DNA of 33,786 bases, taken from positions 1 to 33,786 of the forward strand of contig JAZOBW010000071.1 in NCBI GenBank assembly GCA_045596185.1, in the 5' to 3' direction. Source of the DNA: Acutalibacteraceae bacterium (GTDB lineage: Bacteria; Bacillota; Clostridia; Oscillospirales; Acutalibacteraceae). Below, in pieces: positions 13,298-29,000 of this stretch. The notes beneath the pieces are model-generated. The model saw only the letters and a program-made list of their open reading frames with translations. It did no database searches and was not told the origin of the DNA. Both the position numbers and the translations under genes were made by a program. Position 1 is the first letter of the stretch, and every line of letters starts with the position of its first letter.

Positions 13298-14023
<726 letters not shown>

Positions 14024-14035
14024 TTATCAATTATC

Positions 14036-14064
14036 ATTTTACAATATAAGTAGTTCAAAGTCAA
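14036..14064 (-). promoter_or_regulatory. SigA-type promoter for pyrH (TTGACT-17-TAAAAT on the minus strand)
   Basis: Reverse complement of agtcaa (14059-14064) and atttta (14036-14041) with a 17-nt spacer. The RBS AAGGAAG lies downstream. Confidence 0.5.
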
Positions 14065-14088
14065 TTATTTATAATAATAATTTTAATA

Positions 14089-15267
14089 TTATTCAATAAT
14101 ACGGCCCCGTTTTATACTGTCGTTTCCGAAACGGTCTCTTACCGACTGTATCGAGTCCTCTATCTGTTCCTGACGCATATCGTCCCTAGAAGAACCGAAA
14201 AGATCCTGCTGAACGGCAGGTTGTGCGGTCAGCCGTATCGCTCGTATTCCTACCGAACGAAGCGGCTGTTCAAACCGATAGTTTTCATCGAATATCTTCA
14301 TTCCCTTTTTGGCTATCGGTATTGCCGAATTCATCGCTTCGGGTATACTTTTTGAAAACTCTTTTACCTTAAGTGAAATATTACGCGTGTGTATCTGTAT
14401 TCCCATTGCATAAAGTCCCTTTTTGCGAAGTTGGCGTGATATGTCCTCCGAAAGTTCTAAAAATATCTTCCACACCTCTTCGCGGTCGGTTATATCGTGG
14501 TCGGGAGTCACGGAACGACCAACACTTTTCGGTAGGTAATCGTCACTCACGGGTGTTACCGGCGAACAATCAAGTCCCAATGCATAATCCCTTACCATCT
14601 GCCCCGATTTTCCCAATAACCGTGTAAGCATATCCGGATTGCACCTTGCCGCGTCGCCAATCGTAAATACGCCTAATTCCTTAAGCCGTTCGGCGGTACT
14701 GTTACCGACAAAGAGTAATTTCCTTATAGGATAATCCCATATCTTTTCCCTGAAATCTTCCTTTTTTATCGACATTATGCTGTTATAGCCTGCATTATCG
14801 GAGCCGAGTTTTGCAAATATTTTATTAAAACTCACCCCTATGGATACCGTGATACCAAGTTCGGTTTTTATATCGTTTTTTATTCTTTCGGCTATCGTTT
14901 CTCCCGAACCGAAAAGAATCGTGCTTCCCGTAACATCAAGCCAACACTCATCAATACCGAAAGGCTCAATAAGGTCGGTGTAGCGCTCATATATCCTGTG
15001 CGCCGACTGTGAATATTCAGAATACTTTTTATAATCGGGGGAAAGTGTTACAAGTGCAGGGCATTTGCGCTTTGCCTCCCACACAGCCTCTGCGGTTTTT
15101 ACACCCATAGACTTTGCTATCTCGTTCTTTGCAAGTACTATTCCGTGGCGATCCTCGGTGCTTCCGCATACCGCAACCGGAAGATCGTACAGCGTAGGGT
15201 TCGACAGTAATGAAACCGATGCAAAAAAATTATTAAGATCACAATGCAGTATGATCCTATCCTTCAT
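14089..15267 (-). CDS. Y-family (DinB/UmuC-like) translesion DNA polymerase
   Basis: The start is set at the ATG at 15267 (MKDRIILHCDLNNFFASV), preceded by a strong RBS (AGGAGG). Y-family motifs DLNNFFASV and GIDECWLDVTG are present. The listed 17-codon N-terminal extension is rejected. Confidence 0.9.
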   Translation of the reverse strand: MKDRIILHCDLNNFFASVSLLSNPTLYDLPVAVCGSTEDRHGIVLAKNEIAKSMGVKTAEAVWEAKRKCPALVTLSPDYKKYSEYSQSAHRIYERYTDLIEPFGIDECWLDVTGSTILFGSGETIAERIKNDIKTELGITVSIGVSFNKIFAKLGSDNAGYNSIMSIKKEDFREKIWDYPIRKLLFVGNSTAERLKELGVFTIGDAARCNPDMLTRLLGKSGQMVRDYALGLDCSPVTPVSDDYLPKSVGRSVTPDHDITDREEVWKIFLELSEDISRQLRKKGLYAMGIQIHTRNISLKVKEFSKSIPEAMNSAIPIAKKGMKIFDENYRFEQPLRSVGIRAIRLTAQPAVQQDLFGSSRDDMRQEQIEDSIQSVRDRFGNDSIKRGRIIE

Positions 15268-15318
15268 TACGCCGCCTCCTCTACGAATCGCGTTAAAATA
15301 ATTATACCACATAATCAA

Positions 15319-15639
15319 TCAGTTTTGAACACAAAATTTCTCCAGTGCCTTTATGTGCAACCTTTCTATCTGTCGTTTGCTGTAGTTGAATTGATAACTT
15401 ATCTCCTCAAGCGTTCTTCCGCATATATATTTCTGCGAAAGTATCTCGCTTAGAATATCGCCATCGGTGGCGTCGATACAGTCCTCGATAAGATTTCTAA
15501 ATCTGCGACACTCCCTTATGGACGCACGATATCTGTCTGCCCTTTCAGGACAACGTTTTCGCATCTCCTCAAGTCGCTGTATCTTGGATTGCTGTATCCT
15601 ATACTGCTTCAAAAAGCGCTTCTTTTCCTCAATCGTCAT
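15319..15639 (-). CDS. Small sigma-70 region-4-like HTH protein (phage/ICE-type, DUF1492/ArpU-like)
   Basis: 106 aa. An N-terminal coiled segment is followed by GRTLEEISYQFNYSKRQIERLHIKALEKF, a region-4-type HTH. Its start abuts the stop of the upstream zinc-ribbon gene (TGAATG). Confidence 0.6.
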   Translation of the reverse strand: MTIEEKKRFLKQYRIQQSKIQRLEEMRKRCPERADRYRASIRECRRFRNLIEDCIDATDGDILSEILSQKYICGRTLEEISYQFNYSKRQIERLHIKALEKFCVQN

Positions 15640-16026
15640 TCAGTGTCCTCCCTTTCCCGAAATGCTGGGTAATATCCTTGCGACATACTGTCCGTATGTA
15701 TAGCAGGTCTTGTTGCGGCGATTATAATCTTCGAGTTCCAATGTAATCATATTGATGGGATCAACTGCATTCCTGCGACGCCGCCGCTGCTCATATCGCC
15801 AAAGTTTCATTCCCGCATTTCTGCAGGAATCACTGCAAAAATCCCGTCGATCGGTCAGAATGATTCCGCAGTGATGACACCGCCTTATCTTATTTTCCTT
15901 TATTTTGCTGCTATTGCAAAAAGGACAGACCGCAACGCCTTCAAAAGGCGGTTCGTCAAAACCGTGTTCCTCAAAAAATAGATCAAATTTTTCAAATTTT
16001 CTACCACAGTCCGTACAAATGTACAT
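15640..16026 (-). CDS. Cys-rich double zinc-ribbon protein of unknown function
   Basis: The start is set at the ATG at 16026 (MYICTDCGRKF), after the RBS AAAGGAG. It has CxxC...CxxC, then CxxC...FCSDSC, then an Arg-rich tract (RRRRR). Confidence 0.6.
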   Translation of the reverse strand: MYICTDCGRKFEKFDLFFEEHGFDEPPFEGVAVCPFCNSSKIKENKIRRCHHCGIILTDRRDFCSDSCRNAGMKLWRYEQRRRRRNAVDPINMITLELEDYNRRNKTCYTYGQYVARILPSISGKGGH

Positions 16027-16052
16027 ACAATACACTCCTTTCAAATTTCCTC

Positions 16053-16081
16053 TTGACAATTACGAAAATTCGGTATATAAT
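16053..16081 (+). promoter_or_regulatory. Perfect-consensus SigA promoter (TTGACA-17-TATAAT) reading toward xre/immA/M/R
   Basis: ttgaca at 16053-16058 and tataat at 16076-16081. The spacer carries ttacgaaaattcggta, an imperfect copy of the TTACG-N6-CGTAA motif. Confidence 0.75.
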
Positions 16082-16180
16082 GCGAATTGCAAGGAAGATT
16101 TTTTCGAGTTCTCGTAATTACGATTACATTATATTACGCTTTTTCGTAAATGTCAAGTGCAATTTTACGAATTCGCGTAA
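16060..16180. repeat. Set of operator-like palindromes built on the half-site TTACG/CGTAA
   Basis: Four copies: ttacg-aaaatt-cggta (16060-16075), cgtaattacg (16113-16122), ttacg-cttttt-cgtaa (16134-16149) and ttacg-aattcg-cgtaa (16165-16180). Confidence 0.65.
16128..16156 (-). promoter_or_regulatory. Perfect-consensus SigA promoter (TTGACA-17-TATAAT on the minus strand) reading toward the zinc-ribbon/sigma4-like/polymerase operon
   Basis: The minus strand reads gcacTTGACAtttacgaaaaagcgtaaTATAATg. The 17-nt spacer is almost entirely the palindrome at 16134-16149. Confidence 0.75.
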
Positions 16181-16201
16181 AATTCGAAAGGAAGTATTTT
16201 T

Positions 16202-16534
16202 ATGCCGGATATCTACACTAGAATTGAGGAACTTTGCCGAAAGAAAGGAATCAATGTAACCCAACTTTGCACAGCCTGCAATATCCCCCGTGCATCGCTG
16301 TCGGATTACAAGACGGGAAGAAAAAAAACACTGTCCGCCGAAGTACTGTCAAAAATAGCAGACTTTTTCGGTGTCAGTGTCGATTTTCTGTACGGAAAGG
16401 AACCACGCTTTGCAGATGAACAATCCCTTAAAGTTGCACTTTTCGGTGGTAGTTCCGATGTTACTGATGAAATGTGGGACGAAGTTAAACGTTATGCGCA
16501 ATATATCAAGGAGAGGAATAATGGAAACCGCTAA
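16202..16534 (+). CDS. XRE-family HTH transcriptional repressor (ImmR/DdrO-like partner of the downstream metalloprotease)
   Basis: 110 aa. IEELCRKKGINVTQLCTACNIPRASLSDYKTGRKK is a classic Cro/C1-type HTH, followed by a C-terminal tail of about 45 aa. RBS AAAGGAAG. The 3' end overlaps the next gene by 14 nt. Confidence 0.85.
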   Translation: MPDIYTRIEELCRKKGINVTQLCTACNIPRASLSDYKTGRKKTLSAEVLSKIADFFGVSVDFLYGKEPRFADEQSLKVALFGGSSDVTDEMWDEVKRYAQYIKERNNGNR

Positions 16535-16916
16535 TCTTTACCGTATTGCCGAAAATAACGGTATAGCCGTAGACCGATTTCCCCTGCCCGAAAACCGCTC
16601 ATTAGCATTTATGGATGGTGACGCTATGTATGTAGCCATCGATAAAAACATACGCGGTGCAGAAGAACGGGTGTGCCTCGCACACGAGTTAGGCCACTGC
16701 CAAACCGCAAGTTTTTACAACATATATTCACCGCTCGATGTACGCCAAAAGCACGAAAGACGTGCCGATAAGTGGGCGATTAAGGCGCTAATCCCGAAAT
16801 CGGTCTATCGTAATGCTCTTAAACGGGGATACGACAACATCTATTCCCTTGCCGAATTTTTCGGCGTAACAGCCGATTTTATGAAAAAGGCTGTTGAATT
16901 TTATAGTAATTCGTAA
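16521..16916 (+). CDS. ImmA/IrrE-family (COG2856, M78) zinc metallopeptidase
   Basis: The start is set at the ATG at 16521 after the RBS AAGGAGAGG. HExxH is present in CLAHELGHCQT. Its size and its position just after an XRE gene are typical of ImmA/IrrE. Confidence 0.8.
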   Translation: METANLYRIAENNGIAVDRFPLPENRSLAFMDGDAMYVAIDKNIRGAEERVCLAHELGHCQTASFYNIYSPLDVRQKHERRADKWAIKALIPKSVYRNALKRGYDNIYSLAEFFGVTADFMKKAVEFYSNS

Positions 16917-16947
16917 AATATCTTTTGAAACAAAGGATGTGAATAAA

Positions 16948-17895
16948 ATGCCGCAAGAAAAGGCGCCACGCAACAAAACTATAGATACAACTGTATCTGA
17001 CGGCAAACACTATCTTGACCGTTGCATAAAAATAGAAACGGTTCAAAACGATCTTGACAAAATTCTCGACAAAACCATTCATGGAAATACATTTGAAGTT
17101 TCTTCGCTTTTACCACGTGAAAGCGTTGACTTGATAATCGCAGACCCACCATATAACCTTACAAAAAACTACAATGGAACTTTATTCAAAAAGAAAAATG
17201 CCTCCGAATACGAACTATATACAAGAAAATGGATAGAAAGTATATATCCGCTCCTGAAACCCAACGGTTCTATTTATGTTTGTTGTGATTGGGAGACCAG
17301 TTTAATAATCGGAAACATTCTTAATGAATATTTTACCGTGCGTAACCGCATAACCTGGCAACGCGAAAAAGGCAGGGGTGCGAAGGATAATTGGAAAAAT
17401 GGAATGGAGGATATATGGTACGCAACAAAATCAAATACATTCACATTTAATGTAGATCGGGTTAAAATCCGCAAAAAGGTAATTGCCCCATACAAAGTTG
17501 ATGGTGTGCCAAAAGACTGGGAAGAAACCGATAACGGAAATTTCAGGGATACATACCCTTCAAATTTCTGGGATGATATTACCATTCCCTTCTGGTCAAT
17601 GCCGGAAAACACTGCGCATCCCACCCAGAAATCAGAAAAATTGTATGCCAAAATCATTCTTGCAAGTTCAAATCCTAATGACATTGTATTTGACCCATTT
17701 CTTGGTTCAGGAACAACCAGTGTTGTTGCAAAAAAACTGGGTAGACATTACATTGGAATAGAAATAGAAGACCAATATTGTCTTTGGGCAGAACAGCGGT
17801 TGGAAATGGCGGAATCGCAACGCGATATACAAGGATTTACAAATAATGTTTTTTGGGAAAGAAATACATTGAACCAACAGTCTAAACAAAAATAA
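16948..17895 (+). CDS. Beta-class N6-adenine or N4-cytosine DNA methyltransferase (PF01555-type)
   Basis: Motif IV DLIIADPPYNL lies upstream of motif I FDPFLGSGTTSVVA (order IV then I, which defines the beta class). The start is set at the ATG at 16948. Confidence 0.9.
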   Translation: MPQEKAPRNKTIDTTVSDGKHYLDRCIKIETVQNDLDKILDKTIHGNTFEVSSLLPRESVDLIIADPPYNLTKNYNGTLFKKKNASEYELYTRKWIESIYPLLKPNGSIYVCCDWETSLIIGNILNEYFTVRNRITWQREKGRGAKDNWKNGMEDIWYATKSNTFTFNVDRVKIRKKVIAPYKVDGVPKDWEETDNGNFRDTYPSNFWDDITIPFWSMPENTAHPTQKSEKLYAKIILASSNPNDIVFDPFLGSGTTSVVAKKLGRHYIGIEIEDQYCLWAEQRLEMAESQRDIQGFTNNVFWERNTLNQQSKQK

Positions 17896-17913
17896 AAATA
17901 AGGATGTGTTATT

Positions 17914-18579
17914 ATGAATCCGATCTTAAGCGACGATACCATAAAAGAAGTAGAAAATAGTATAATAAACCGGCTAAACAAACTTCCAGATTTTCAAAAT
18001 CCTCGCATCAATAACAGTCCCCGTTCTATTGGAGATACCGTTCAAGATGTGATGGGAGAAATTTTACCATCGTGTTTTCCGGAAAAATTGTTAAAAAATT
18101 TCAGCGCTGATTTTGCAAGACGAGCGATGGCAGACCTTGCTTTTTCGGATGTAGATGACAACTACTATATAGTGGATATTAAAACACACAACACATCTAC
18201 CGATTTCAATATGCCCAATCTAACCTCCGTTGAACGACTGGCGCGATTTTACGAAGATGATAAAAACTATTTTATGGTTTTACTAGTCGAATATTCTGTT
18301 GTTAATGGAGTTTTGACATTTAATAATGCCAATTTTGTTCCCATAGAAAATTTGAAATGGGATTGTCTAACTATCGGAGCACTGGGTTGGGGACAGATTC
18401 AGATTGCAAATTCAAATATTGTTAATATTGACAGAAGTCTTAACCGAGTCGATTGGATGCTTTCGCTTTGTGACGCACTTGATATTTTCTACCCAAAAGA
18501 AATAGAAAAAATAACAGCAAGAATAAATCGATTTTGTTCCGTTCGTAAATTTTGGGAAAATAAAAAGAACAATTTATAA
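17914..18579 (+). CDS. Putative type II restriction endonuclease (PD-(D/E)XK-like), partner of the methyltransferase
   Basis: 221 aa, starting 19 nt after the MTase stop. The candidate catalytic core is D...YIVDIKT (D-x(n)-D-I-K, an EcoRV-like pattern). No other recognisable domain. The gene is A+T-rich. Confidence 0.5.
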   Translation: MNPILSDDTIKEVENSIINRLNKLPDFQNPRINNSPRSIGDTVQDVMGEILPSCFPEKLLKNFSADFARRAMADLAFSDVDDNYYIVDIKTHNTSTDFNMPNLTSVERLARFYEDDKNYFMVLLVEYSVVNGVLTFNNANFVPIENLKWDCLTIGALGWGQIQIANSNIVNIDRSLNRVDWMLSLCDALDIFYPKEIEKITARINRFCSVRKFWENKKNNL

Positions 18580-18582
18580 AAT

Positions 18583-18614
18583 AAAATCCTCCACTGTAGT
18601 GGAGGATTTTATTT
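18583..18614. terminator. Bidirectional terminator between the nuclease gene (+) and the SBP gene (-)
   Basis: aaaatcctccac (18583-18594), tgta loop, gtggaggatttt (18599-18610). It is flanked by A- and T-runs. Confidence 0.85.
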
Positions 18615-20098
18615 TACTCGTACTTTTCTATAAATGAAAAGTCGATATATCCGTTTTGGGGTTCGATAGAAATGTTTTTCAGGCCTTCATCAAATGCAAA
18701 ATTTGTACTTTCAAAAGCAAAGGGGGCAAGCGTATTATCCTTAAGCAATTCCTGCTGAACGGTAGCGGGATCGCCGCTATACTGACCGAAATTCTGAAGA
18801 TATTCCGATACAGATGTACTTTGCGCCTTTACGGGAAACACGGCAAACTGAAGGGTGCGTTCACCGAGTTCCGAGTTTAATGTTTCAAGTGAATCGGAAG
18901 GTTTAATATTTACAAACGCACTTACATTCTGCTGCCAATGACCCATAAGTGCCGTTACCGCAGGTTTTATAAATTCATTATCGTAGTAATAAAGGGTTGA
19001 TGCAGGAAACTTCTTATCCTCAAGCGATGACACCGCACCGGAGAAAACCGATTTTGCCGCAAACGCATCATAAGGCGTTACACCAACGCCGTTTGCTGAA
19101 CCGTTTATACCAACAATTATATCGGGGTAGAGAGAATCTGCCGCCGTAAAGCCGGCCGGCAATTGTTCGGAATAAATATCCGCAGAACGCAGCATCAAAA
19201 GCGACCTGCGTATATCCGCCGTGTATTCACGGCTTAGTGTAAGAACCCAGCAGATATTCTGTATACTTTCAATCTGCATACCGCCCTTACTTGCATCGGA
19301 TATTTCGTTACTGGGTAAAAAGGCGGCATCTACGCTGTTTTTTTCAAGCAACTGATAGGGCGTTTCCTCTTGATTGCAGGAAAGAAAGACCGCCGCATTT
19401 GATGCAACAAAATCGCCGTTATACTCCTCATTTTTATAAAGGCGTATACCGAAATCTTCTTTGTTCCACTTTGTTATTCTATATGAACCGTTAGACAAAA
19501 TATACTCGCTTTCAAGGCCGTATCTACCGGTAGCATCCTCGAAAAACTCTTCATTACAAGGCATACATATAGAGGTTGTAAGGGTTTCTTTGAAATTATC
19601 GTCCTCACGGCAAAGGGTTATTACCAGTGTCTTTTCATCGACCGCTGTTACTCCCAGTTCGGACGGATCCATTGAACTTTCATATATTTCCTTTGCATTT
19701 GATATTGCAAAAAGACGGCTTACAAAAGGTGCCTTGGTTTGCGGCGTTACCGCACGTCTTAAGCCGAATACAAAGTCGGCCGCGGTAAGCGGTGTGCCGT
19801 CACTCCAGCGGGCATCCTGCCTTATTGTAAATGTATAGGCAAGACCGCTAACCTGCACATCTTCGCAGACACCGTAAACAATTTCACCCGAAGCATCCCT
19901 TCGAAAAAGCCCTTCATAAATATTGCGCACAATAAGAAGTTCGGAATCAGTAGACGCCGTTTGTGCATCAAGAACTGCGGGTTTTTCGTTAACTTCAAAA
20001 TATATATATGCATCCTTGTGATTATCGCCGCATCCCACCGCCGAAGCAGCAAGAAACAAGCACATCACTACTGAAAGCAAACGGTATAAAAACTTCAT
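18614..20098 (-). CDS. ABC transporter substrate-binding lipoprotein, family 5 (peptide/nickel, OppA-like), with no adjacent permease or ATPase genes
   Basis: The start is set at the ATG at 20098 (MKFLYRLLSVVMCLFLAASAVGCG: signal peptide plus lipobox) after the RBS GGGAG. The family-5 SBP-like core includes ARWSDGTPLTAADFVF. Confidence 0.8.
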   Translation of the reverse strand: MKFLYRLLSVVMCLFLAASAVGCGDNHKDAYIYFEVNEKPAVLDAQTASTDSELLIVRNIYEGLFRRDASGEIVYGVCEDVQVSGLAYTFTIRQDARWSDGTPLTAADFVFGLRRAVTPQTKAPFVSRLFAISNAKEIYESSMDPSELGVTAVDEKTLVITLCREDDNFKETLTTSICMPCNEEFFEDATGRYGLESEYILSNGSYRITKWNKEDFGIRLYKNEEYNGDFVASNAAVFLSCNQEETPYQLLEKNSVDAAFLPSNEISDASKGGMQIESIQNICWVLTLSREYTADIRRSLLMLRSADIYSEQLPAGFTAADSLYPDIIVGINGSANGVGVTPYDAFAAKSVFSGAVSSLEDKKFPASTLYYYDNEFIKPAVTALMGHWQQNVSAFVNIKPSDSLETLNSELGERTLQFAVFPVKAQSTSVSEYLQNFGQYSGDPATVQQELLKDNTLAPFAFESTNFAFDEGLKNISIEPQNGYIDFSFIEKYE

Positions 20099-20128
20099 TT
20101 GTACTACTCCCAAAAACTTTATGGATTC

Positions 20129-20157
20129 ATTATAAAACAAACCGTAGTTTATTTCAA
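20129..20157 (-). promoter_or_regulatory. SigA-type promoter for the SBP gene (TTGAAA-17-TATAAT on the minus strand)
   Basis: Reverse complement of tttcaa (20152-20157) and attata (20129-20134) with a 17-nt spacer. Confidence 0.55.
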
Positions 20158-20187
20158 CAATAAAAAATAAACTGTAAAGAATAAAAC

Positions 20188-20216
20188 TTGACATATAGAA
20201 TGTATGGTGTTATAAT
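20188..20216 (+). promoter_or_regulatory. SigA-type promoter for ylxM-ffh (TTGACA-17-TATAAT with an extended -10 TG)
   Basis: ttgaca at 20188-20193 and tataat at 20211-20216, preceded by tgt. Confidence 0.65.
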
Positions 20217-20254
20217 ATCGGCTGTAAAGATTTTTCCTTGACAGGAGAACGGAT

Positions 20255-20557
20255 ATGGCTAAAGATTGGTATATATCTGCCCTTTTGGATGTTTATGGCG
20301 AATTTTTAAGCGAAAAACAGCGCGATCTGGTTGCCCTTTACTACAACGACGACCTTACGCTTAGCGAAATTGCAGAAAACGAAGGCATAACCAGACAGGG
20401 TGCTTCCGACCTTATCAGACGCGCCGAACAGCAACTTTTGCGTTTTGAAGAAAAATGCGGTTACTGCAAAAATTTTATGCGGCTTAAACAGATTTGCGAA
20501 AATCAGCATCCGGAGGAAAACCTTGACGAAATAATATCTATTATCAACGATTTATAA
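20255..20557 (+). CDS. ylxM: UPF0122/YlxM putative DNA-binding protein (sigma region-4-like), upstream of ffh
   Basis: 100 aa with LSEKQRDLVALYYNDDLTLSEIAENEGITRQGASDLIRRA. Conserved position directly before ffh. Confidence 0.9.
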   Translation: MAKDWYISALLDVYGEFLSEKQRDLVALYYNDDLTLSEIAENEGITRQGASDLIRRAEQQLLRFEEKCGYCKNFMRLKQICENQHPEENLDEIISIINDL

Positions 20558-20570
20558 GGAGTGTGAAATC

Positions 20571-21920
20571 ATGGCTTTTGATGCCCTTTCCGATAAGTTG
20601 AACGGCATATTCAAAAAACTTCGCTCACGCGGAAAATTAAGCGAATCCGATGTTAAAACAGCGATGCGAGAAGTGCGTCTTGCCCTTCTTGAAGCCGATG
20701 TTAACTACAAAGTTGCCAAAGATTTCACCAATAAAGTAGCCGAAAAATGCATCGGTGAAAATGTTATGGAAAGCCTCACCGCCGCACAAACGGTAATTAA
20801 AATCGTTCGCGAAGAACTTACCGAACTGATGGGTAGCGATCAGGCGCGTCTTAAAACATCATCAAAACTTCCCACCGTTATTATGATGTGCGGTCTGCAG
20901 GGCTCGGGTAAAACCACCCACTCTGCAAAACTTGCAAAATATCTTAAATCAAAGGGTCACCGCCCGATGCTGGTAGCCTGCGATATCTATCGCCCTGCCG
21001 CCATAGAACAGTTGAAGGTGGTAGGTGCCGCAGTAGACACCCCCGTTTTTGACAAGGGTACACAATCCCCCGAAAAAACCGCTAAAGAAGCGATTGCATA
21101 CGCCAGAGATTACGGTTACGACTTTGTAATTCTGGATACCGCAGGACGACTTCATATAGATACAGAACTGATGGACGAGCTGCGCCGCATAACCGAAACG
21201 GTAGAGGTTCACAACATTCTTCTTGTTGTTGACTCGATGGTGGGTCAGGATGCGGTAAATATCGCCAAATCTTTCGATGAAATACTTGCTATCGACGGTG
21301 TTATCCTTACCAAACTTGACGGTGATACGCGCGGCGGTGCCGCACTTTCGGTCAGAGCAGTAACCGGCAAACCCATTATGTTTACCGGTGTGGGCGAAAA
21401 ACTTGACCAACTTGATGAATTTCACCCCGACCGTATGGCAACAAGAATTCTCGGTATGGGCGATGTCCTTTCCCTTATAGAAAAGGTTGAAAATGAGATC
21501 GACGAGAAAAAAGCCGAAGAAACCGCCAAAAGACTTCAGGAAAACAAATTTGATATGAACGATCTGCTTGACCAGTTCCAACAGATAAAGAAAATGGGCA
21601 GTCTTAAAAATCTGCTTTCGATGATTCCGGGAATGGAAAGACAGATACGCGATGTTGACATCGACGACCGCCAGATGCTTAGGGTTGAAGCGATAATTCA
21701 GTCGATGACCAAAAAAGAACGCTCTAAACCTGATATTATAAACGCTTCAAGAAAGCGCCGTATCGCTGCCGGTTCCGGCATGAGTGTTGAAGATGTAAAC
21801 CGTCTTTTAAGGCAGTACGAACAGATGAAAAAGATGTTCAAGCAGATGAATTCCAAGGGTGGCAAACGCAAGATGATGCGTGGCATTAAACCCGGCAATT
21901 TCGGCAATTTTGGTTTTTAA
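20571..21920 (+). CDS. ffh: Signal recognition particle protein Ffh
   Basis: GLQGSGKTT P-loop, DTAGRL, TKLDGDTRGGAAL and a Met-rich C-terminal M domain. Confidence 0.97.
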   Translation: MAFDALSDKLNGIFKKLRSRGKLSESDVKTAMREVRLALLEADVNYKVAKDFTNKVAEKCIGENVMESLTAAQTVIKIVREELTELMGSDQARLKTSSKLPTVIMMCGLQGSGKTTHSAKLAKYLKSKGHRPMLVACDIYRPAAIEQLKVVGAAVDTPVFDKGTQSPEKTAKEAIAYARDYGYDFVILDTAGRLHIDTELMDELRRITETVEVHNILLVVDSMVGQDAVNIAKSFDEILAIDGVILTKLDGDTRGGAALSVRAVTGKPIMFTGVGEKLDQLDEFHPDRMATRILGMGDVLSLIEKVENEIDEKKAEETAKRLQENKFDMNDLLDQFQQIKKMGSLKNLLSMIPGMERQIRDVDIDDRQMLRVEAIIQSMTKKERSKPDIINASRKRRIAAGSGMSVEDVNRLLRQYEQMKKMFKQMNSKGGKRKMMRGIKPGNFGNFGF

Positions 21921-24294: not shown

Positions 24295-24370
24295 CCGGGT
24301 GTGGCGCAGTTGGTAGCGTGCTTGACTGGGGGTCAAGAGGCCGCAGGTTCAAGTCCTGTCACTCGGACCA
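24295..24370 (+). tRNA. tRNA-Pro (anticodon GGG) with encoded CCA
   Basis: Manual cloverleaf. Acceptor ccgggtg/cactcgg. D-arm gcgc-agttggta-gcgt. Anticodon stem cttga/tcaag with loop cT-GGG-gg. T-arm gcagg-ttcaagt-cctgt. Discriminator A plus CCA. Confidence 0.85.
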
Positions 24371-24521: not shown

Positions 24522-26021
24522 ATGCTGAAAAAAGAAAAAATCAGCAAATATCTGAACGCTTTTCTGAATTTATTTGCTGTTTCTCTTCCGTTGTTACTGT
24601 GCCGATTTATCAGCGGCGGAAGAATAATGCAATGGTTTACACCATTCGCCGTTTTTGGTGACGAGACCGGCTATTTCAGGGTTACGAAATCATTTGTAGA
24701 AGCGAAAGGATATTTCGGAAACTACGGTGTTACCCTTGGCAGTGATGTTGCCGCAAACTTCGGCGGTTTTTCAGCGCACGGGCCAAAATACATCTGGCTT
24801 TACGGTGTTTTAGGAAAACTATTCGGTTGGGAACTGTACAGTATTCTGGTATTCAATATCATTATTCTTACCATCGCTGTGGCTGTTTTCCTTTATCTTG
24901 TGAAATTTAACAACAAGCAACTTATCTGCTTCTCGGCGCTTTTCGTTTCCTTCTTCCCGATGCTTTATTTCCTGATATCCGGAATGGTGGAGACCCTGCA
25001 CTTCGCATTTATTCTTATTTTTATGGGTCTGTTTTACCGTTTTTATCAGACAAGAAGCATCAAATGGTATGCCCTTTCATTCCTTTTTGTGTTTTTCCTT
25101 GTCTTCTTCAGAATAAATTATTTTATTCTGTTCTTCCCCCTTATCATTCTTTACAGACAGAAAAACATCAAGATGACCGTTATCGATTCGGTCGTAGCGC
25201 TTATACTAAGTGCATTTTCCTACATCTTTATCGGGCAGTTCAGTGCGCCCTATCCTTCTTATCTGGACGACATTATCGGAGCACTTAAATCTTTTGATAT
25301 CTTCGGTATGTTCGGTATAGTATTTTCTCATGCAGGAGCACAGTTGAAATCCTTCTTTGTCGGAAGCGGTGATTCGATATTTGAAACCGTGTTCAAATAT
25401 TGCTATATTATCGTAATGATATTTACAGCGGTACTCGGTATAATAAAGGCACGAAAAGAAAAGAAATTCAATCTTATGCTTTTCAGTTCAATAATAATGT
25501 TTGCCGAATTTATCATTGTTATATTCCTGTATGAATTCCAGTATTTCAGAGGTTTCAGAACGCTGTCGGTATTCTTGTTCATACCCTTTATATGTGCGAT
25601 ACTCAAAAACAGAAAAGTTGCATATATTATGTGCGCACTGCTAGTTATAGTGAATGTTTCGGTATCTTCGTTCTATCAGACCTATAAAAGTCAGGCCACC
25701 AATCTGTATAGTCCCAATTCACCGATAACTATGCAGAACGAAGTTGATGAACTGTTCACGCATATCCCCTGTGACACCAGCGGCGACAGATGGAAAAATA
25801 CCATAGCCATACACAACAGACAGACCTATACCAGCAGCGTTATGTTCGGCTTCCCCGGATATGCAGGAATGAACTATGTGCTATCGGAAGATTTTTCAAA
25901 AATATCAAAATGTCAATACATTTTAGCAGACAGTGACGAAATCGAAGATTCAATAAATAAAGACCTTTACGAAAAGGTTTGCGACAGTGCTTTCGGTGTG
26001 CTGTACAGCAAAACAAAATAA
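24522..26021 (+). CDS. Polytopic integral membrane protein, possibly a GT-C-fold glycosyltransferase; function unknown
   Basis: 499 aa with RBS GAGGTGA. About 11-12 hydrophobic segments are followed by a soluble C-terminal tail of roughly 110 aa. An acidic DE pair (FGDETGYF) lies in the first loop. Confidence 0.45.
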   Translation: MLKKEKISKYLNAFLNLFAVSLPLLLCRFISGGRIMQWFTPFAVFGDETGYFRVTKSFVEAKGYFGNYGVTLGSDVAANFGGFSAHGPKYIWLYGVLGKLFGWELYSILVFNIIILTIAVAVFLYLVKFNNKQLICFSALFVSFFPMLYFLISGMVETLHFAFILIFMGLFYRFYQTRSIKWYALSFLFVFFLVFFRINYFILFFPLIILYRQKNIKMTVIDSVVALILSAFSYIFIGQFSAPYPSYLDDIIGALKSFDIFGMFGIVFSHAGAQLKSFFVGSGDSIFETVFKYCYIIVMIFTAVLGIIKARKEKKFNLMLFSSIIMFAEFIIVIFLYEFQYFRGFRTLSVFLFIPFICAILKNRKVAYIMCALLVIVNVSVSSFYQTYKSQATNLYSPNSPITMQNEVDELFTHIPCDTSGDRWKNTIAIHNRQTYTSSVMFGFPGYAGMNYVLSEDFSKISKCQYILADSDEIEDSINKDLYEKVCDSAFGVLYSKTK

Positions 26022-26081: not shown

Positions 26082-29000
26082 TTATACTTTTTTAAGTATC
26101 TTTATCTTAGGGCTTTTAAGAATACCAAACGGTTTAGTGCGATATTCATAACACCAGTTCCAACCTTCGGTGCGCCACGCTTCAGGACCGATCCACTCTG
26201 TAGCGGAGTTAACAAGATGAAGTGCACCAAAACTGTTATAGCGATTTCCGAAAAGGGTAAGAGAAAGTGTGTGCTTTCCTTTTGCAACGTTCTCTATAAC
26301 CGTTTCATATGGCGGAAGAACAATTCGGTTTACACGTTTACCATCAAGTCCTACGCCGATTAGAGAACCGCGATAAAACTCGCTTTGTATTGAAACGGCA
26401 CCATCTTCCGGCATCTCAATTTCAATATCATATGTGATATTGGCACCGTAAAACGGCATACCCTGCGAAACAATATCCGAAAAACCGACCTTTTCCTGCT
26501 TTGCGGTTATCACGGCATCTGCACCCATCAGTTTTACACCGAAATCGCCAAGGATATAGCACCATTCAATATTGGTTCGTTCACCGAAAGGAACATCTAT
26601 TTCAATAACATTCTTTCCCTTTTTAATAAGAGAAAGCGGTATTTTGCTTATCGCCTCATCGGTAAAATAACCCACGATATTATTCTGAACCTTTTGTCCG
26701 TTAAGGGTAATATCTATAATGTCGGCATCCTCAACGGCGAGAAATGCATCTGTAAGTTCCAATTCACTTTCAAATTCATATTTAAGGTGCACTGTGTGCT
26801 CGGCAGGTTTGTCTGAAAGTACATAGGGCTGATTGGAATTTGGACGCATTCCAAAAATTTCCCTTGCCTTTTTAGATACACGCAAAACCTCTTCTGCACT
26901 CTGCCACTCGCCGTCGTCACAAGCGTATTCGGCACGGTCAAGAAGCAACACATTCGGTTCGCTGAGTGTATAAGGCACCGGCTTTTTAATATCAAATGCC
27001 GAAATGCACTCATACTGTGCGGAATCGGTATTCTCACAAACCGTGTCGTCAGACAATTTCAGCAAAAGGCTGGTGCAGGTGTGAAAATGCTTTTTGATAA
27101 GTGTTTTGCCGTCTTGATGTGTGTATTCGATAGGCATGATATTGCCCGACAGTGTATCATATTCGGTAGGGACAAATTCACCTTCAATAGTTATGGTAAG
27201 TTCATCACAATGCAGAGAATCCTTAACGCCGCAATACATTTCGGGATCCTTACTGTGTGCAATAAACAACCAACGGCAATCATTATCCTGACGGTAGTTA
27301 TAAATAAATCTGTCGGCCTGTCTGCCGTCATTATATGTAATCCCTATATTACGGATATCTTCCAAAGAATCTGAAAGCGACGACTTATCAAAACCGATAT
27401 TACAGCAGGCATTATACAGGTCCTCACATCCGTTTGATATAATGCCATCCATATATGTTGGCGCCTTGCCCATAAATATGACCCTACCGCCGGACTTTCT
27501 GAATCTTTCAAGAAAATCTACTGTGGTTTTGCGAAGTGTAATACAGGCAGGTACAATTATTACATCGTACTGCATTTTTCCTATCGCGCCAGGACGCTCC
27601 TCACAGGATAGTTGGGGAATAGTAGACTCACAGATAAAGTTAAAGTCGAAGTGTTCCTCCAAAAGCCACTCGGTAATATTTTTGAAGTTACTTTCGAGTG
27701 CAGCGATAGTTATAGCCGTTTGCGAATTTGGGCCCACGCTTATCCAGTAACTTTCAATCGGATGAATAACACCCAGTTTAACTATCGGTGTGCCTCGGGT
27801 AAGGGCGGTATTAAGACGTGCAAAGTGATCTTCTATATAAGGATATTCCTTATACCACGGTGACTGATAGCCTATTGCAGCAGGAAAGTCACGCTTTGCC
27901 TCACCCTTCATAGATACCCACGCAAGGTGTGGCACACGAACGGTAACACCCAAAGCCGCCTGCCAGTCGCCCTGAAGTTTATGACCCCTGAAATCAAAGT
28001 CCCAGTTGGTAACACCGTAAAGTTCGGAAAGCATACCCTCCTTGCCATACTGATGGACGGCAGACTGGGTCTGTTTTGCGGTTGTAAATTCGTGCCAGTT
28101 GCAAAGCATATCTATACCCGGTATAGTAAACTCTCCGTAACTGCGCATAGTTTCACCGCAGGTGGGTGCCTGACCGCCCAGTTGTGCTTCGCGAAGAAGA
28201 TGACCGGTCAGTGCGATACCGTTTTTATCACACCACTCACCCAACTGACCGCTGAAATTCTGTGAAAACTGATGCGCAAGAAAATCAAAATATCTGTATT
28301 TTATAATGGAATCGCTGTTATCCGCCTTTTTCCAAAAAAGTTCGGGAAGGCGGTCGAGAATATCCTCACCGTAATATTTTTGATACTCTTCTTCAAAATA
28401 GCGCGACCAACCGCACTTAATAACCCACCTGTATTCGGGGGTGGGAATTATCGCTTCACTGCCGTCCTGCATAACATTTGGCTCGTCGGTAAAGATGGCG
28501 GGTACGGTTTTATCAAAACGGTTGCCCACCTTTTCCTTATACCGCTCATGGGTAACATTTATAAACTCGGCAACCGATTCGCTGTCCATAGAGTCAAAAT
28601 AACTTCCGCCGTTATGCCACGCCGAATCCCACTCAACCTCGCAATAGGCGTACCACTTGTCGCCAAAGGCTTCATCATCAATAGAAATTCGACGACAGTT
28701 GGCAATAAAACCATCGCTGCCGATAGTAAGATCATAGGCGGCAAGAAAATATATGGTGCCTTTTTCGAGTGCTTCCTCTTTTGGAAGTGCCGATTCCACC
28801 TTATGGGGCAAAAGCACAAGCCTTTTTCTTCGAAATCTTTTGTTTTTAGTTACCTTGCCGCCGGCACCACCCGAAGGCCAACGGTCCTCGTCATAAAGCC
28901 ATGCAAGCATTTGTTCGTCTTCCGCTTTATCACAACAGGCCGCGACCATTTCCATGAACTCGTCCCCAAGGTATTCGGTAGCAAGACCGGTTCGGGAATG

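What the first reader, a model, noticed from the sequence alone, without database searches (positions are those of the whole stretch)
14089..18579. Composite accessory locus (XRE/ImmA switch + Y-family polymerase operon + R-M operon) between two core housekeeping blocks
The locus lies between pyrH (the end of the conserved pyrH...polC block) and the SBP/ylxM-ffh block. It holds seven genes in two operons that face away from each other: zinc-ribbon -> sigma-region-4-like -> Y-family polymerase on the minus strand, and XRE -> ImmA/IrrE protease -> beta-class MTase -> PD-(D/E)XK nuclease on the plus strand. Genes within each operon are tightly packed, with overlaps or gaps of 0-50 nt. The MTase and nuclease half looks clearly more A+T-rich by eye than the flanking core genes. 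The rpsB-tsf pair that normally precedes pyrH in Firmicutes is absent from the window. No integrase, transposase or obvious att repeats were seen, so this is not a recognisable prophage or ICE remnant. Each part is a familiar family, but I do not recognise the combination as a described system: a cleavable-repressor switch wired both to a mutagenic polymerase and to an R-M pair. It could be a damage- or infection-inducible defence and mutagenesis module.
Basis: partly seen in the sequence, partly recalled or inferred. Interest (0 to 1): 0.8.

Follow-up and report, generated by a model that had tools for sequence, protein, structure and literature searches.

The report
Damage-switch polymerase module plus inserted restriction cassette
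The seven genes are real, but they are two unrelated things: a five-gene repressor/protease switch with an error-prone DNA polymerase that is conserved in many gut Clostridia, and a small foreign restriction-modification cassette that landed behind it in this genome only.

Summary
All seven genes, their families, orientation and tight spacing are confirmed. The seven-gene "system" is not.

**Conserved five-gene module.** It reads zinc-ribbon protein -> sigma-region-4-like protein -> Pol IV, facing XRE -> ImmA. It recurs as a unit in at least 36 other species-level genomes of Acutalibacteraceae/Ruminococcaceae-type gut Clostridia. It has host-like G+C and sits among different housekeeping genes.

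**Conserved control region.** In 34/34 loci the intergenic region holds two near-consensus promoters that face each other. It also holds three or four 16-bp palindromes (TTACG-N6-CGTAA) at fixed offsets, two of them inside the promoter spacers. In 28/35 loci Pol IV also has its own promoter with a LexA box. The window lacks that box.

**Restriction-modification (R-M) pair.** The methyltransferase and nuclease form a 1.67-kb, 36% G+C insertion lying exactly between the immA stop codon and the old terminator. The closest relative lacks it at the same locus, as does every other module locus. Homologous pairs elsewhere are stand-alone cassettes.

**Best reading.** This is an ImmR/ImmA-type, damage-responsive switch controlling a translesion-polymerase operon. 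The R-M cassette has no promoter of its own and is probably read through from the xre promoter by accident of insertion.

New variant of a known kind; moderate interest.

The parts
14089..15267 (-). Y-family DNA polymerase (Pol IV/DinB-type, 392 aa). Catalytic D9 and D-E (IDECWLDV) are present, as is a QQDLF clamp-binding-like motif.
   Evidence: Pfam IMS/IMS_C/IMS_HHH. NCBIfam Pol IV models, below the equivalog cut-offs. Sequence. An orthologue follows sig4 in 32/36 module loci.
15301..15329 (-). Pol IV's own promoter-like site (TTCAAA-17-TATAAT with TG), overlapping the sig4 3' end. It has no LexA box in this genome.
   Evidence: In 28/35 related loci the equivalent promoter (TTTACA-17-TATAAT) is followed by GAAC-N4-GTT[CT].
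15319..15639 (-). 106-aa sigma-70-region-4-like HTH protein (sig4), with a coiled N-terminal half.
   Evidence: Sigma70_r4 in the window copy and in 15/36 orthologues. phrog_36 transcriptional regulator, E 2.6e-11. No relatives in phage, plasmid or viral collections.
15640..16026 (-). 128-aa double zinc-ribbon protein (ZnR) with a basic helix and a conserved C-terminal YN...T.LSYGQ motif. It belongs to a small uncharacterised family.
   Evidence: Invariant C4, C7, C34, C37, C50, C53, C64, C68. Only 189 relatives among 1.84 billion representative proteins. No Pfam, PDB or fold match.
16053..16081 (+). P(xre): a 12/12 consensus sigma-70 promoter firing rightwards into xre-immA, and here on into the R-M genes.
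   Evidence: Conserved at the same offset, with at least 11/12 matches, in 33/34 loci.
16060..16075 (.). Operator O1 (TTACGAAAATTCGGTA), inside the P(xre) spacer.
16102..16117 (.). Operator O2 (TTTCGAGTTCTCGTAA), between the two predicted transcription starts.
16128..16156 (-). P(pol operon): a 12/12 consensus promoter firing leftwards into ZnR-sig4-Pol IV. It faces P(xre), and the two predicted 5' ends overlap by about 34 nt.
   Evidence: Conserved in 33/34 loci and face-to-face in 34/34.
16134..16149 (.). Operator O3 (TTACGCTTTTTCGTAA), inside the spacer of the leftward promoter.
16165..16180 (.). Operator O4 (TTACGAATTCGCGTAA), upstream of the leftward promoter and within the xre leader.
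16202..16534 (+). 110-aa XRE-family repressor: N-terminal HTH plus a highly conserved C-terminal domain with invariant K77, A79, L80, F81, G82, G83 and W92.
   Evidence: Pfam HTH_3/HTH_26. PADLOC capH over residues 6-103. Alignment of 38 orthologues with 70% mean identity. Weak PDB matches to SinR, DdrO and ImmR, HTH region only.
16521..16916 (+). 131-aa ImmA/IrrE-type (M78) zinc metallopeptidase. It is the peptidase domain only, and overlaps xre by 14 nt.
   Evidence: PF06114 above cut-off. phrog_87 metalloprotease, E 9e-26. PADLOC capP, E 1e-7. Invariant HELGH and E79.
16917..18576 (+). Inserted R-M cassette (1.67 kb, 36% G+C), lying between the immA stop codon and the ancestral terminator.
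   Evidence: blastn against L010: window 13783-16903 matches L010 1-3114, and window 18576-20902 matches L010 3124-5459. Junction sequences. Composition.
16948..17895 (+). Beta-class, probably N6-adenine, DNA methyltransferase (315 aa).
   Evidence: N6_N4_Mtase, E 8e-48. PADLOC MTase_II, E 8e-71. DPPY comes before FxGxG.
17914..18579 (+). Type IIP PD-(D/E)XK restriction endonuclease (221 aa) of the SwaI/HincII/EcoRV structural branch.
   Evidence: 4369 homologues, all unnamed. AF2 pLDDT 90.5. Foldseek hits: SwaI E 1.4e-6 with TM 0.64, HincII E about 3e-6. Always preceded by the methyltransferase elsewhere.
18577..18616 (.). Bidirectional terminator hairpin (19-bp stem), shared with the convergent SBP gene. 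It is homologous to the hairpin that directly follows immA in L010.

Best explanation
Two independent units lie side by side.

**(1) A conserved chromosomal five-gene module.** The XRE repressor is inferred to bind four palindromic operators. These cover two strong promoters that face each other. It would thereby hold down both its own xre-immA operon and the opposing ZnR-sig4-Pol IV operon. On DNA damage the ImmA-type zinc peptidase is inferred to cleave XRE in its conserved C-terminal domain, most likely near the invariant F81-G82. Both promoters would then fire. That would raise the translesion polymerase and the two small proteins of unknown role, and re-make the repressor for shut-off.

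In most relatives Pol IV also has its own LexA-box promoter, so the polymerase integrates two damage signals. In this genome the LexA box is missing.

**(2) A promoter-less Type II R-M cassette** (beta-class methyltransferase, then a PD-(D/E)XK nuclease) of foreign composition. It inserted between the immA stop codon and the terminator in this lineage only. It is most probably transcribed by read-through from the autoregulated xre promoter.

**Shown:** gene content, conservation, insertion boundaries, promoter and operator patterns.
**Inferred:** operator binding, cleavage, damage induction, read-through.
For: **The module is a unit.**
- The same five genes in the same order occur in L010 (same pyrH/SBP locus, no R-M), in L007-9 (beside pyrH, different right flank) and in L011-13 (unrelated flanks).
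- Of 80 species-representative loci found with ImmA, 32 are complete. Four have ZnR-sig4<>XRE-ImmA without an adjacent Pol IV.
- 16 loci found from sig4 give the same picture.
- Only these five genes are shared across loci.

**The control region is conserved.**
- The window has two 12/12 promoters.
- They sit at fixed offsets and face each other in 34/34 loci. Four operators are present in 29 loci and three in 5.
- 107 of 112 operator matches lie in that intergenic region, against 5 in the other 420 kb.
- All three window matches lie within 16102-16180.

**Independent link between XRE and Pol IV.** In L079 an inserted gene separates Pol IV from the operon. There Pol IV carries its own TTGACA-[operator]-TATAAT promoter plus a second operator.

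**LexA box** in 28/35 loci.

**The R-M pair is an insertion.** See the clean indel against L010, the 36.4% against 43% G+C, 0 R-M hits in all other module loci, and stand-alone M->R pairs in four other contexts. There is only a 31-nt leader with no promoter-like site, while other cassettes carry their own.

**Mechanistic precedent** for HTH repressor plus M78 peptidase pairs: Lau et al. (10.1101/2022.04.27.489752), 10.64898/2026.05.16.725639, PMC8072749.
Against: - No experiment exists. Operator binding, cleavage and induction all rest on analogy.
- ImmA here has 131 aa. It lacks the HTH and GAF domains that bind ssDNA in CapP and IrrE, so the sensing step is unknown.
- Profiles of ImmA and of the XRE C-terminal domain find no solved relative.
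- Four or five loci keep ZnR-sig4 but have no adjacent Pol IV. One keeps ZnR-sig4-Pol IV without XRE-ImmA. The partnership is therefore strong but not obligate, and ZnR-sig4 rather than Pol IV may be the primary output.
- Pol IV has its own promoter, so read-through from the switch may contribute little.
- A weak 5-bp hairpin with a T-run inside the immA 3' end (16861-16886) could reduce read-through into the R-M genes.
- No same-species genome was available to date the insertion.
Confidence: 0.75

Rival explanations
1. All seven genes form one selected, damage- or infection-inducible 'defence plus mutagenesis' system, in which the XRE/ImmA switch was recruited to control both a mutagenic polymerase and an R-M pair.
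For: - The R-M genes sit 31 nt behind immA on the same strand, with no promoter-like site of their own. The only terminator lies after the nuclease.
- CapH/CapP-like pairs are known to regulate defence operons (10.1101/2022.04.27.489752).
- XRE and ImmA match the PADLOC capH and capP models.
Against: - The R-M pair is absent from the orthologous locus in L010 and from every other module locus (0 of 39 and 0 of 16).
- Its composition is foreign.
- Its homologues never have XRE, ImmA or Pol IV neighbours in the four contexts examined.
- In CapH/CapP systems the controlled operon is divergent from the regulators. Here that position is held by the polymerase operon, not the R-M pair.
Confidence: 0.07
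2. The five-gene module is the decayed immunity and early region of a prophage or integrative element. A Y-family polymerase is its cargo, as with yolD-uvrX of SPbeta or rumAB of SXT. On this view it is mobile rather than a host regulatory circuit.
For: - ImmR/ImmA pairs and face-to-face or divergent promoter switches with several operators are typical of temperate elements (PMC8072749, PMC3675496).
- sig4 matches PHROG transcriptional-regulator families.
- The module sits in at least eight different neighbourhoods.
- More distant ImmA relatives (below about 50% identity) lie in other contexts, one of them phage-like (L046).
Against: - No integrase, recombinase or att repeats in the window, and no gene family beyond the five module genes shared across the module loci. 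The flank proteins of those loci were not screened for integrases.
- Host-like G+C and GC3.
- No relative of sig4 in 2.9 million viral contigs or 72,556 plasmids, and none of sig4 or ZnR in 50,697 phage genomes.
- Flanks are housekeeping genes, and related genomes share synteny groups. This fits vertical descent with rearrangement.
- A host LexA box is embedded in the module in 28/35 loci.
Confidence: 0.1
3. The switch's real output is ZnR-sig4, a damage-induced transcription-factor pair acting on targets elsewhere. Pol IV is essentially a separate LexA-controlled gene that merely sits next to it.
For: - Pol IV has its own promoter in nearly all loci, with a LexA box in 28/35.
- ZnR-sig4<>XRE-ImmA persists without an adjacent Pol IV in L025, L027, L038, L039 and L103.
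- sig4 is a sigma-region-4-type DNA-binding domain.
Against: - Pol IV directly follows sig4 in 32/36 loci, with no room for a terminator.
- When separated in L079, Pol IV keeps XRE operators of its own.
- No operator or other conserved site was found outside the intergenic region in 420 kb of flanks.
Confidence: 0.2
4. XRE is the controller (C) protein of the R-M cassette, and ImmA is incidental.
For: C proteins are small XRE-type HTH proteins encoded just upstream of R-M genes (general knowledge of Type II R-M control).
Against: - XRE is 86% identical to the L010 orthologue, which has no R-M pair. It is conserved (70% mean identity) across 38 loci that all lack R-M genes.
- Homologous R-M pairs elsewhere have no HTH gene upstream.
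- The operators lie 770 nt or more upstream of the methyltransferase, in the divergent region.
Confidence: 0.02

Closest known systems
ImmR/ImmA of Bacillus subtilis ICEBs1 and phage phi105
   Same: - An XRE-type repressor gene is followed by a short, single-domain M78 (PF06114) zinc peptidase gene.
- The repressor operon opposes the operon it controls.
- Several operators overlap the promoters.
- Induction by DNA damage through repressor cleavage is the model adopted here.
   Different: - The controlled genes are a translesion polymerase operon, not excision or transfer genes.
- There is no integrase or mobile element.
- The promoters face each other rather than diverging back to back.
- The proteins are too distant for a PDB sequence match (ImmR HTH E 0.07; ImmA none).
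CapH/CapP regulators of CBASS and other defence operons
   Same: - PADLOC capH (E 7.5e-10, residues 6-103 of 110) and capP (E 1.1e-7) are the best defence-library matches.
- The repressor is about 100 aa, with an HTH and a C-terminal domain.
- The invariant F81-G82 lies at the position of the CapH F82|R83 cleavage site.
- The regulators are divergent from the controlled operon.
   Different: - CapP is about 280 aa: peptidase, HTH and GAF domains, with an ssDNA groove and a cysteine-switch loop. This peptidase has 131 aa and only the catalytic domain.
- The conserved cargo is a DNA-repair polymerase, not an immune system.
DdrO/IrrE (PprI) radiation response of Deinococcus
   Same: An M78 peptidase cleaves an XRE repressor to switch on DNA-repair genes independently of LexA. 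The DdrO HTH is among the weak PDB matches (E 0.003).
   Different: - IrrE has HTH and GAF domains and is unlinked to its targets.
- DdrO controls a dispersed regulon through a different motif (RDRM).
- Here the circuit is local, and it coexists with a LexA box on the same polymerase gene.
DUF955 (= PF06114) metallopeptidases linked to ImuB-C/DinB neighbourhoods (Aravind, Anand & Iyer 2013, PMC3765255)
   Same: This is a prior computational note that zincin-like peptidases of this Pfam family are genomically linked to Pol IV-type mutagenic polymerases, and may add a proteolytic step to the SOS response.
   Different: - That link was reported through stand-alone ImuB-C proteins. No ImuB-C was detected here.
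- The ZnR and sig4 partners, the XRE partner, the operator and promoter layout, and the LexA co-control were not described there.
LexA-controlled accessory-protein/Y-polymerase operons (umuDC; yolD-uvrX and yqjX-yqjW of B. subtilis; Timinskas & Venclovas 2019, PMC6511836)
   Same: Small genes sit immediately upstream of a Y-family polymerase. A Gram-positive LexA box (GAAC-N4-GTTC) precedes the polymerase in 28/35 related loci.
   Different: - The upstream proteins are not UmuD or YolD (no Pfam match).
- They are driven by an XRE/ImmA-controlled promoter.
- The window itself has lost the LexA box.
Type IIP R-M systems with EcoRV-branch nucleases (HincII, SwaI, EcoRV)
   Same: A two-gene M->R cassette. 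The nuclease model superposes on SwaI (TM 0.64) and HincII (21-23% identity over about 143 columns). The methyltransferase is beta class with DPPY.
   Different: - No sequence-level match to any solved enzyme.
- Recognition site unknown.
- No C protein.
- Here it has no promoter of its own and is embedded in a host regulatory operon.
Face-to-face promoter switches of coliphages 186 and P2 (PMC3675496)
   Same: Two strong promoters fire towards each other over a short overlap (about 34 nt predicted here). Repressor sites are spread across the region.
   Different: - That is a phage lysis/lysogeny switch with a different repressor family.
- Here the geometry is only predicted from consensus hexamers, though it is conserved in 34/34 loci.

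Membership tests
ImmR/ImmA-type repressor/peptidase switch (XRE HTH + PF06114/M78) | Adjacent, co-oriented genes for an XRE-family HTH protein and a PF06114 peptidase | tested here: met
   HTH_3/HTH_26 and Peptidase_M78 (36 bits against a cut-off of 22), with a 14-nt overlap. The pairing is kept in every locus found from the ImmA side that has the upstream sequence. Among loci found from sig4, one (L111) has ZnR-sig4-Pol IV without XRE-ImmA.
ImmR/ImmA-type repressor/peptidase switch (XRE HTH + PF06114/M78) | Zincin HExxH motif plus a downstream Glu ligand conserved in the peptidase | tested here: met
   H55, E56, H59 and E79 are invariant in 44 orthologues.
ImmR/ImmA-type repressor/peptidase switch (XRE HTH + PF06114/M78) | Repressor operators overlapping the promoters of the controlled operon and of its own operon | tested here: met
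   This is a sequence pattern only. TTACG-N6-CGTAA lies in both promoter spacers, with two more copies, at fixed offsets in 34/34 loci. Binding was not tested.
ImmR/ImmA-type repressor/peptidase switch (XRE HTH + PF06114/M78) | Peptidase-dependent cleavage of the repressor after DNA damage | not testable with these tools
   Only circumstantial. There is an invariant ALFGG motif in the XRE C-terminal domain, and a LexA box on the same polymerase gene in relatives.
CapH/CapP | CapP architecture: peptidase + HTH + GAF domains (about 280 aa) forming an ssDNA-binding groove | tested here: not met
   The protein has 131 aa and the Pfam match covers only the peptidase domain. Architecture as described in 10.64898/2026.05.16.725639.
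CapH/CapP | The regulator pair is divergent from an associated immune operon | tested here: not met
   The divergent operon is ZnR-sig4-Pol IV, with no PADLOC hit. The R-M pair lies downstream on the same strand, and only in this genome.
Type II restriction-modification system | DNA methyltransferase with AdoMet motif I (FxGxG) and catalytic motif IV ((D/N/S)PP(Y/F)) | tested here: met
   DPPY at residue 66 and FLGSG at 251, beta-class order. N6_N4_Mtase E 8e-48. PADLOC MTase_II E 8e-71.
Type II restriction-modification system | Adjacent endonuclease with a PD-(D/E)XK fold and catalytic residues | tested here: met
   AF2 pLDDT 90.5. Foldseek hits to SwaI, HincII and EcoRV. Invariant D74, D88 and K90.
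Type II restriction-modification system | The methyltransferase and nuclease travel together as a unit | tested here: met
   The M->R pair occurs in four other, mutually unrelated contexts.
Type II restriction-modification system | Sequence-specific cleavage blocked by the cognate methylation | not testable with these tools
   No REBASE or methylome data. Recognition site unknown.
LexA (SOS) regulon member | Gram-positive LexA box GAAC-N4-GTTC at the promoter | tested here: not met
   None upstream of Pol IV, nor anywhere else in the 33.8-kb window. It is present in 28/35 related loci.
Genomic island / prophage / ICE | Integrase or recombinase, flanking att repeats or a tRNA target, atypical composition | tested here: not met
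   For the five-gene module: no integrase in the window and no gene family beyond the five shared across loci (locus flanks not screened for integrases), host-like G+C, and no flanking repeats. For the R-M cassette: composition is atypical, but there are no repeats and no recombinase.
UmuD/YolD-type polymerase accessory proteins | An S24 peptidase (UmuD) or YolD domain in the gene upstream of the polymerase | tested here: not met
   ZnR and sig4 give only zinc-ribbon and Sigma70_r4 matches.

The most novel reading that the evidence does not exclude
The conserved module is a second DNA-damage circuit in Oscillospirales gut bacteria that is independent of LexA. A face-to-face promoter switch would be set by a cleavable XRE repressor and a minimal, GAF-less ImmA peptidase. 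It would turn on a new transcription-factor pair (the double-zinc-ribbon protein plus the region-4-only sigma-like protein). That pair would license or target error-prone Pol IV. Mutagenic synthesis would then need two separate damage signals (LexA and XRE) and might fire in only a subpopulation of cells. In this one genome an R-M cassette has tapped into that circuit, giving damage-inducible restriction.
Probability: 0.2. Interest if true: 0.65.

Novelty: new variant of a known kind. Interest (0 to 1): 0.4.

Why it matters
**What the result removes.** It removes an apparently exotic seven-gene "defence plus mutagenesis" system. It also shows how a promoter-less R-M cassette can lodge at the 3' end of a host regulatory operon.

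**What remains.** The remaining module is modestly valuable. It is a sharply defined, uncharacterised circuit found so far only in uncultured gut and rumen Clostridia:
- an XRE repressor and a minimal ImmA peptidase;
- four operators and two opposed consensus promoters;
- two unknown small proteins;
- Pol IV, usually with an added LexA box.

**If the inferred mechanism holds.**
- It would be a clean example of M78-peptidase control of translesion synthesis. That link was suggested from gene neighbourhoods in 2013 but never dissected.
- It would show how mutagenic polymerases can be gated by two independent damage sensors in abundant gut anaerobes.
- The operator and promoter layout gives ready-made reagents for testing.

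Tried and rejected
- **Exact look-ups** of the window's Pol IV and nuclease in the assembly index: not on record.
- **Nuclease:** no Pfam, NCBIfam, PHROG, PADLOC or PDB-sequence match. No source names for homologues. No hits in phage or plasmid collections. Only the fold comparison identified it.
- **ZnR:** the word-indexed search found only 3 proteins. The profile search against PDB gave only generic zinc-finger or ribbon hits. The AF2 model from a 3-sequence alignment was poor (pLDDT 64), and its fold search gave nothing below E = 1. I draw no functional conclusion. The alignment was too variable for a viral-contig scan.
- **sig4:** no PDB relative. None in phages, plasmids or IMG/VR.
- **ImmA and XRE profiles against PDB:** nothing for ImmA even at E = 10. 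Only HTH-level hits for XRE.
- **Flanking repeats** around the R-M insertion: only short chance matches.
- **Rfam** over the locus: only sub-threshold hits on the terminator hairpin.
- **C-protein idea** for XRE: rejected on comparative grounds.
- **Recognition site from site avoidance:** considered and not attempted. The insertion looks recent and the window is only 34 kb.
- **Literature:** nine full-text searches found no description of this module. The library covers open-access papers only.

Full report

Yes. The seven ORFs are present in the stated orientation.

- Pfam, NCBIfam, PHROG and PADLOC scans confirm six of them: a Y-family polymerase (IMS/IMS_C), a Sigma70_r4-like 106-aa protein, a cysteine-rich zinc-ribbon protein, an XRE HTH protein, a PF06114/M78 ImmA-IrrE peptidase and an N6_N4 methyltransferase.
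- The seventh has no sequence family and no PDB sequence match.
  - A confident AlphaFold model (pLDDT 90.5) superposes on the Type II restriction enzymes SwaI, HincII and EcoRV.
  - The alignment shows invariant D74...D88-x-K90.
- Reading the DNA corrects four start codons: Pol IV 15267, ZnR 16026, ImmA 16521, MTase 16948.
- Gene spacing is 0, 51, -14, 31 and 18 nt.
- The methyltransferase/nuclease half has 36.4% G+C. The other five genes have 43.1% and the flanks 44%. Only 0.9% of equal-sized stretches of the window are that low.
- The flanks are polC-ispG-M50-dxr-cdsA-uppS-frr-pyrH and SBP-ylxM-ffh-rimM-trmD, with no rpsB or tsf.

**2. The block is two things, not one.**

*Contexts of ImmA homologues.* The 131-aa ImmA has about a thousand homologues of very uniform length. 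Their contexts are decisive.

- The closest (76% identity, L010) lies on a contig with pyrH(fragment)-Pol IV-107 aa-132 aa<>XRE-ImmA-SBP-ylxM-ffh. That is the same locus without the two R-M genes.
- A 72% relative has polC...frr-pyrH-Pol IV-111-134<>XRE-ImmA, followed by unrelated genes.
- A 67% relative has the same five genes in an entirely different neighbourhood.

*The insertion boundaries.* blastn of the window against L010 aligns 13783-16903 and 18576-20902 at 74% identity. Window 16904-18575 is left opposite 9 bases. In L010 the immA stop codon is followed at once by the terminator hairpin. In the window the methyltransferase and nuclease sit between that stop codon and the homologous hairpin. 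No flanking repeats were found.

*The R-M pair elsewhere.* The nuclease family is large (4369 hits). In the four contexts examined it is always a methyltransferase->nuclease pair among unrelated genes, with no XRE, ImmA or polymerase nearby. This includes the two closest homologues at 73% and 71% identity.

**3. How general is the five-gene module?**

- *ImmA-side sample.* A scan of one genome per species (GTDB) with the ImmA alignment returned 80 loci. All the high-identity ones are gut or rumen MAGs labelled Acutalibacteraceae, Ruminococcaceae, Oscillospiraceae or simply Clostridia.
- *Module content.* phmmer of the window proteins against six-frame ORFs gave:
  - the complete module in 32 loci;
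  - ZnR-sig4<>XRE-ImmA without an adjacent polymerase in 4 loci;
  - 3 contigs cut off inside the module;
  - below about 50% ImmA identity, only XRE-ImmA pairs in other settings.
- *R-M and pyrH.* No locus has a methyltransferase or nuclease hit. None has pyrH nearby.
- *sig4-side sample.* An independent scan of metagenome contigs starting from sig4 gave 16 loci (two appear to be the same contigs as L018 and L050) with the same picture and again no R-M genes. One locus (L111) has ZnR-sig4-Pol IV without XRE-ImmA.
- *Flanks.* Clustering of all flanking ORFs shows that only the five module genes are shared. The flanks are housekeeping genes falling into several synteny groups, with no recombinase family.
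- *Mobile collections.* sig4 has no relatives in 2.9 million viral contigs or 72,556 plasmids, and neither sig4 nor ZnR has any in 50,697 phage genomes.

The module is therefore a chromosomal, lineage-wide feature and not an island.

**4. The control region.**

*In the window.*
- The 175-nt region between ZnR and xre holds two perfect sigma-70 consensus promoters.
- One on the + strand (16053-16081) points towards xre. One on the - strand (16156-16128) points towards ZnR.
- The rightward promoter lies to the left of the leftward one, so they face each other. The predicted 5' ends overlap by about 34 nt.
- Four 16-bp palindromes, TTACG-N6-CGTAA, lie at 16060, 16102, 16134 and 16165. The first is inside the P(xre) spacer and the third is inside the spacer of the leftward promoter.

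*Across loci.*
- Across 34 loci whose proteins are only 30-70% identical, both promoters keep at least 11/12 matches in 33 loci.
- The 17-nt spacers, the offsets (about 25 and about 127 nt from the ZnR start codon) and the face-to-face geometry hold in all 34.
- Four operators are found in 29 loci and three in 5, at offsets of about 32, 73, 105 and 136.

*Specificity of the motif.*
- The motif with at most one mismatch occurs 107 times in these intergenic regions. It occurs 5 times in the other 420 kb, where about 12 are expected by chance.
- In the window all three such matches lie within 80 nt.

*An independent link to Pol IV.* In L079 a 636-aa gene has been inserted between sig4 and Pol IV. 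The displaced polymerase has acquired its own TTGACA-[TTACGAAAAACCGCAA]-TATAAT promoter, with a second operator just upstream.

**5. A second input.**

- The short gap between sig4 and Pol IV contains another promoter. In relatives it reads TTTACA-17-TATAAT. In the window it reads TTCAAA-17-TATAAT.
- In 28 of 35 loci it is followed within a few bases by GAAC-N4-GTT(C/T), the Gram-positive LexA (Cheo) box.
- The window, L010 and five others lack it. The window has no such box anywhere.
- In most species, then, the polymerase can be reached both by LexA and by the XRE-controlled upstream promoter. This lineage has lost the LexA site.

**6. The proteins.**

- *XRE* is the most conserved member (70% mean identity). 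It has an HTH and a C-terminal domain with invariant K77, A79, L80, F81, G82, G83 and W92. The PADLOC capH model matches residues 6-103. The F81-G82 pair sits where CapH is cut (F82|R83, 10.1101/2022.04.27.489752). This is an inference from position only.
- *ImmA* keeps HELGH and E79 but has 131 aa. It lacks the HTH and GAF domains through which CapP and IrrE bind ssDNA (10.64898/2026.05.16.725639). In size it resembles ICEBs1 ImmA, whose activation depends on RecA or RapI (as summarised in 10.1101/2022.04.27.489752). How damage is sensed here is unknown.
- *ZnR* has eight invariant cysteines, a basic helix and a conserved C-terminal motif.
  - Its family has only 189 members among 1.84 billion representative proteins.
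  - It has no Pfam, PDB or fold relative.
- *sig4* is a region-4-only sigma-like HTH with a coiled N-terminal half. A region-4 domain alone cannot be a sigma factor, so a DNA-binding accessory or activator role is the most I can infer.
- *Pol IV* has the catalytic acidic residues and a QQDLF clamp-binding-like motif.

**7. Mechanism proposed.**

*Shown:* gene content, conservation, insertion boundaries and sequence patterns.

*Inferred, by analogy with ImmR/ImmA, CapH/CapP and DdrO/IrrE:*
- XRE dimers occupy O1-O4 and repress both promoters, including their own.
- DNA damage activates ImmA, which cleaves XRE.
- ZnR, sig4 and Pol IV rise, and so do XRE and ImmA, which resets the switch.

The R-M cassette has no promoter-like site of its own, whereas homologous cassettes elsewhere do. 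No strong terminator separates it from immA. It is therefore most likely expressed by read-through from the autoregulated xre promoter, low in the steady state and higher after damage.

However, it is absent from every other module locus. It is an accident of where a foreign cassette landed, and there is no evidence of selection for the coupling.

**8. Comparison with what is known.**

- The switch works like ImmR/ImmA and CapH/CapP. It is a member of the broad XRE + PF06114 class.
- It fails two CapP-defining features: domain architecture, and an immune operon as the divergent cargo.
- A genomic link between PF06114 (then called DUF955) peptidases and ImuB-C/DinB was noted in 2013 (PMC3765255).
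- The survey of Y-family polymerase neighbourhoods in PMC6511836 mentions no XRE, peptidase or sigma-like partners.
- Nine full-text searches found no description of this five-gene module or its control region.
- I therefore rate it a new variant of a known kind: real, sharply defined and untested.
- The seven-gene composite as a system is not supported.
- Interest is moderate (0.4). A specialist would not be astonished. The conserved opposed-promoter switch, the two unknown partners and the dual XRE/LexA control of a mutagenic polymerase in abundant gut anaerobes are nevertheless directly testable.

Noticed in passing
L007, L011, L014 and others (28 of 35 module loci). The equivalent position in the window is 15268-15318.: Relatives carry a Gram-positive LexA box (GAAC-N4-GTT[CT]) just downstream of a TTTACA-17-TATAAT promoter in front of Pol IV. 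The window and L010 have lost it, and the whole 33.8-kb window has no such box.
   Followed up: yes
L079:3735-3885 (- strand): Pol IV is separated from sig4 by an inserted 636-aa DUF4838 gene. It has its own copy of the operator-bearing promoter (TTGACA-aTTACGAAAAACCGCAA-TATAAT) plus a second operator 9 nt upstream.
   Followed up: yes
L025, L027, L038, L039, L103, and L111:3125-4714: Module variants exist. Five loci keep ZnR-sig4 (with XRE-ImmA where the contig extends far enough to see them) but have no adjacent Pol IV. One (L111) has ZnR-sig4-Pol IV directly behind a DegV-like gene, with no XRE-ImmA.
   Followed up: partly
L011, L018-L021 (ZnR orthologues): Some ZnR orthologues are about 93 aa and lack the first zinc ribbon. 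The conserved core is therefore the second C4 cluster, the basic helix and the C-terminal YN...LSYGQ motif.
   Followed up: no
window 16861-16886 (+): A weak terminator-like hairpin (5-bp stem, then TTTTATGAAA) lies inside the immA 3' coding region, at a conserved protein motif. It could attenuate read-through into the R-M genes, or it may be coincidental.
   Followed up: no
window 24522-26021 (+) and 26082-29171 (-): Two large ORFs (499 aa and 1029 aa) have no Pfam match at E <= 1e-5. They lie just downstream of tRNA-Pro (24295-24370).
   Followed up: no
window 18577-18616: A perfect 19-bp-stem hairpin overlaps the nuclease stop codon and abuts the stop of the convergent SBP gene. It is the homologue of the hairpin that follows immA directly in L010, so the insertion preserved the ancestral bidirectional terminator.
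   Followed up: yes
L046:4487-5791 and other loci L054-L093: ImmA relatives below about 50% identity are XRE-ImmA pairs with no ZnR, sig4 or Pol IV. At least one sits next to phage-like genes. The peptidase subfamily tied to the polymerase module is thus a distinct clade within a wider mobile-element family.
   Followed up: partly
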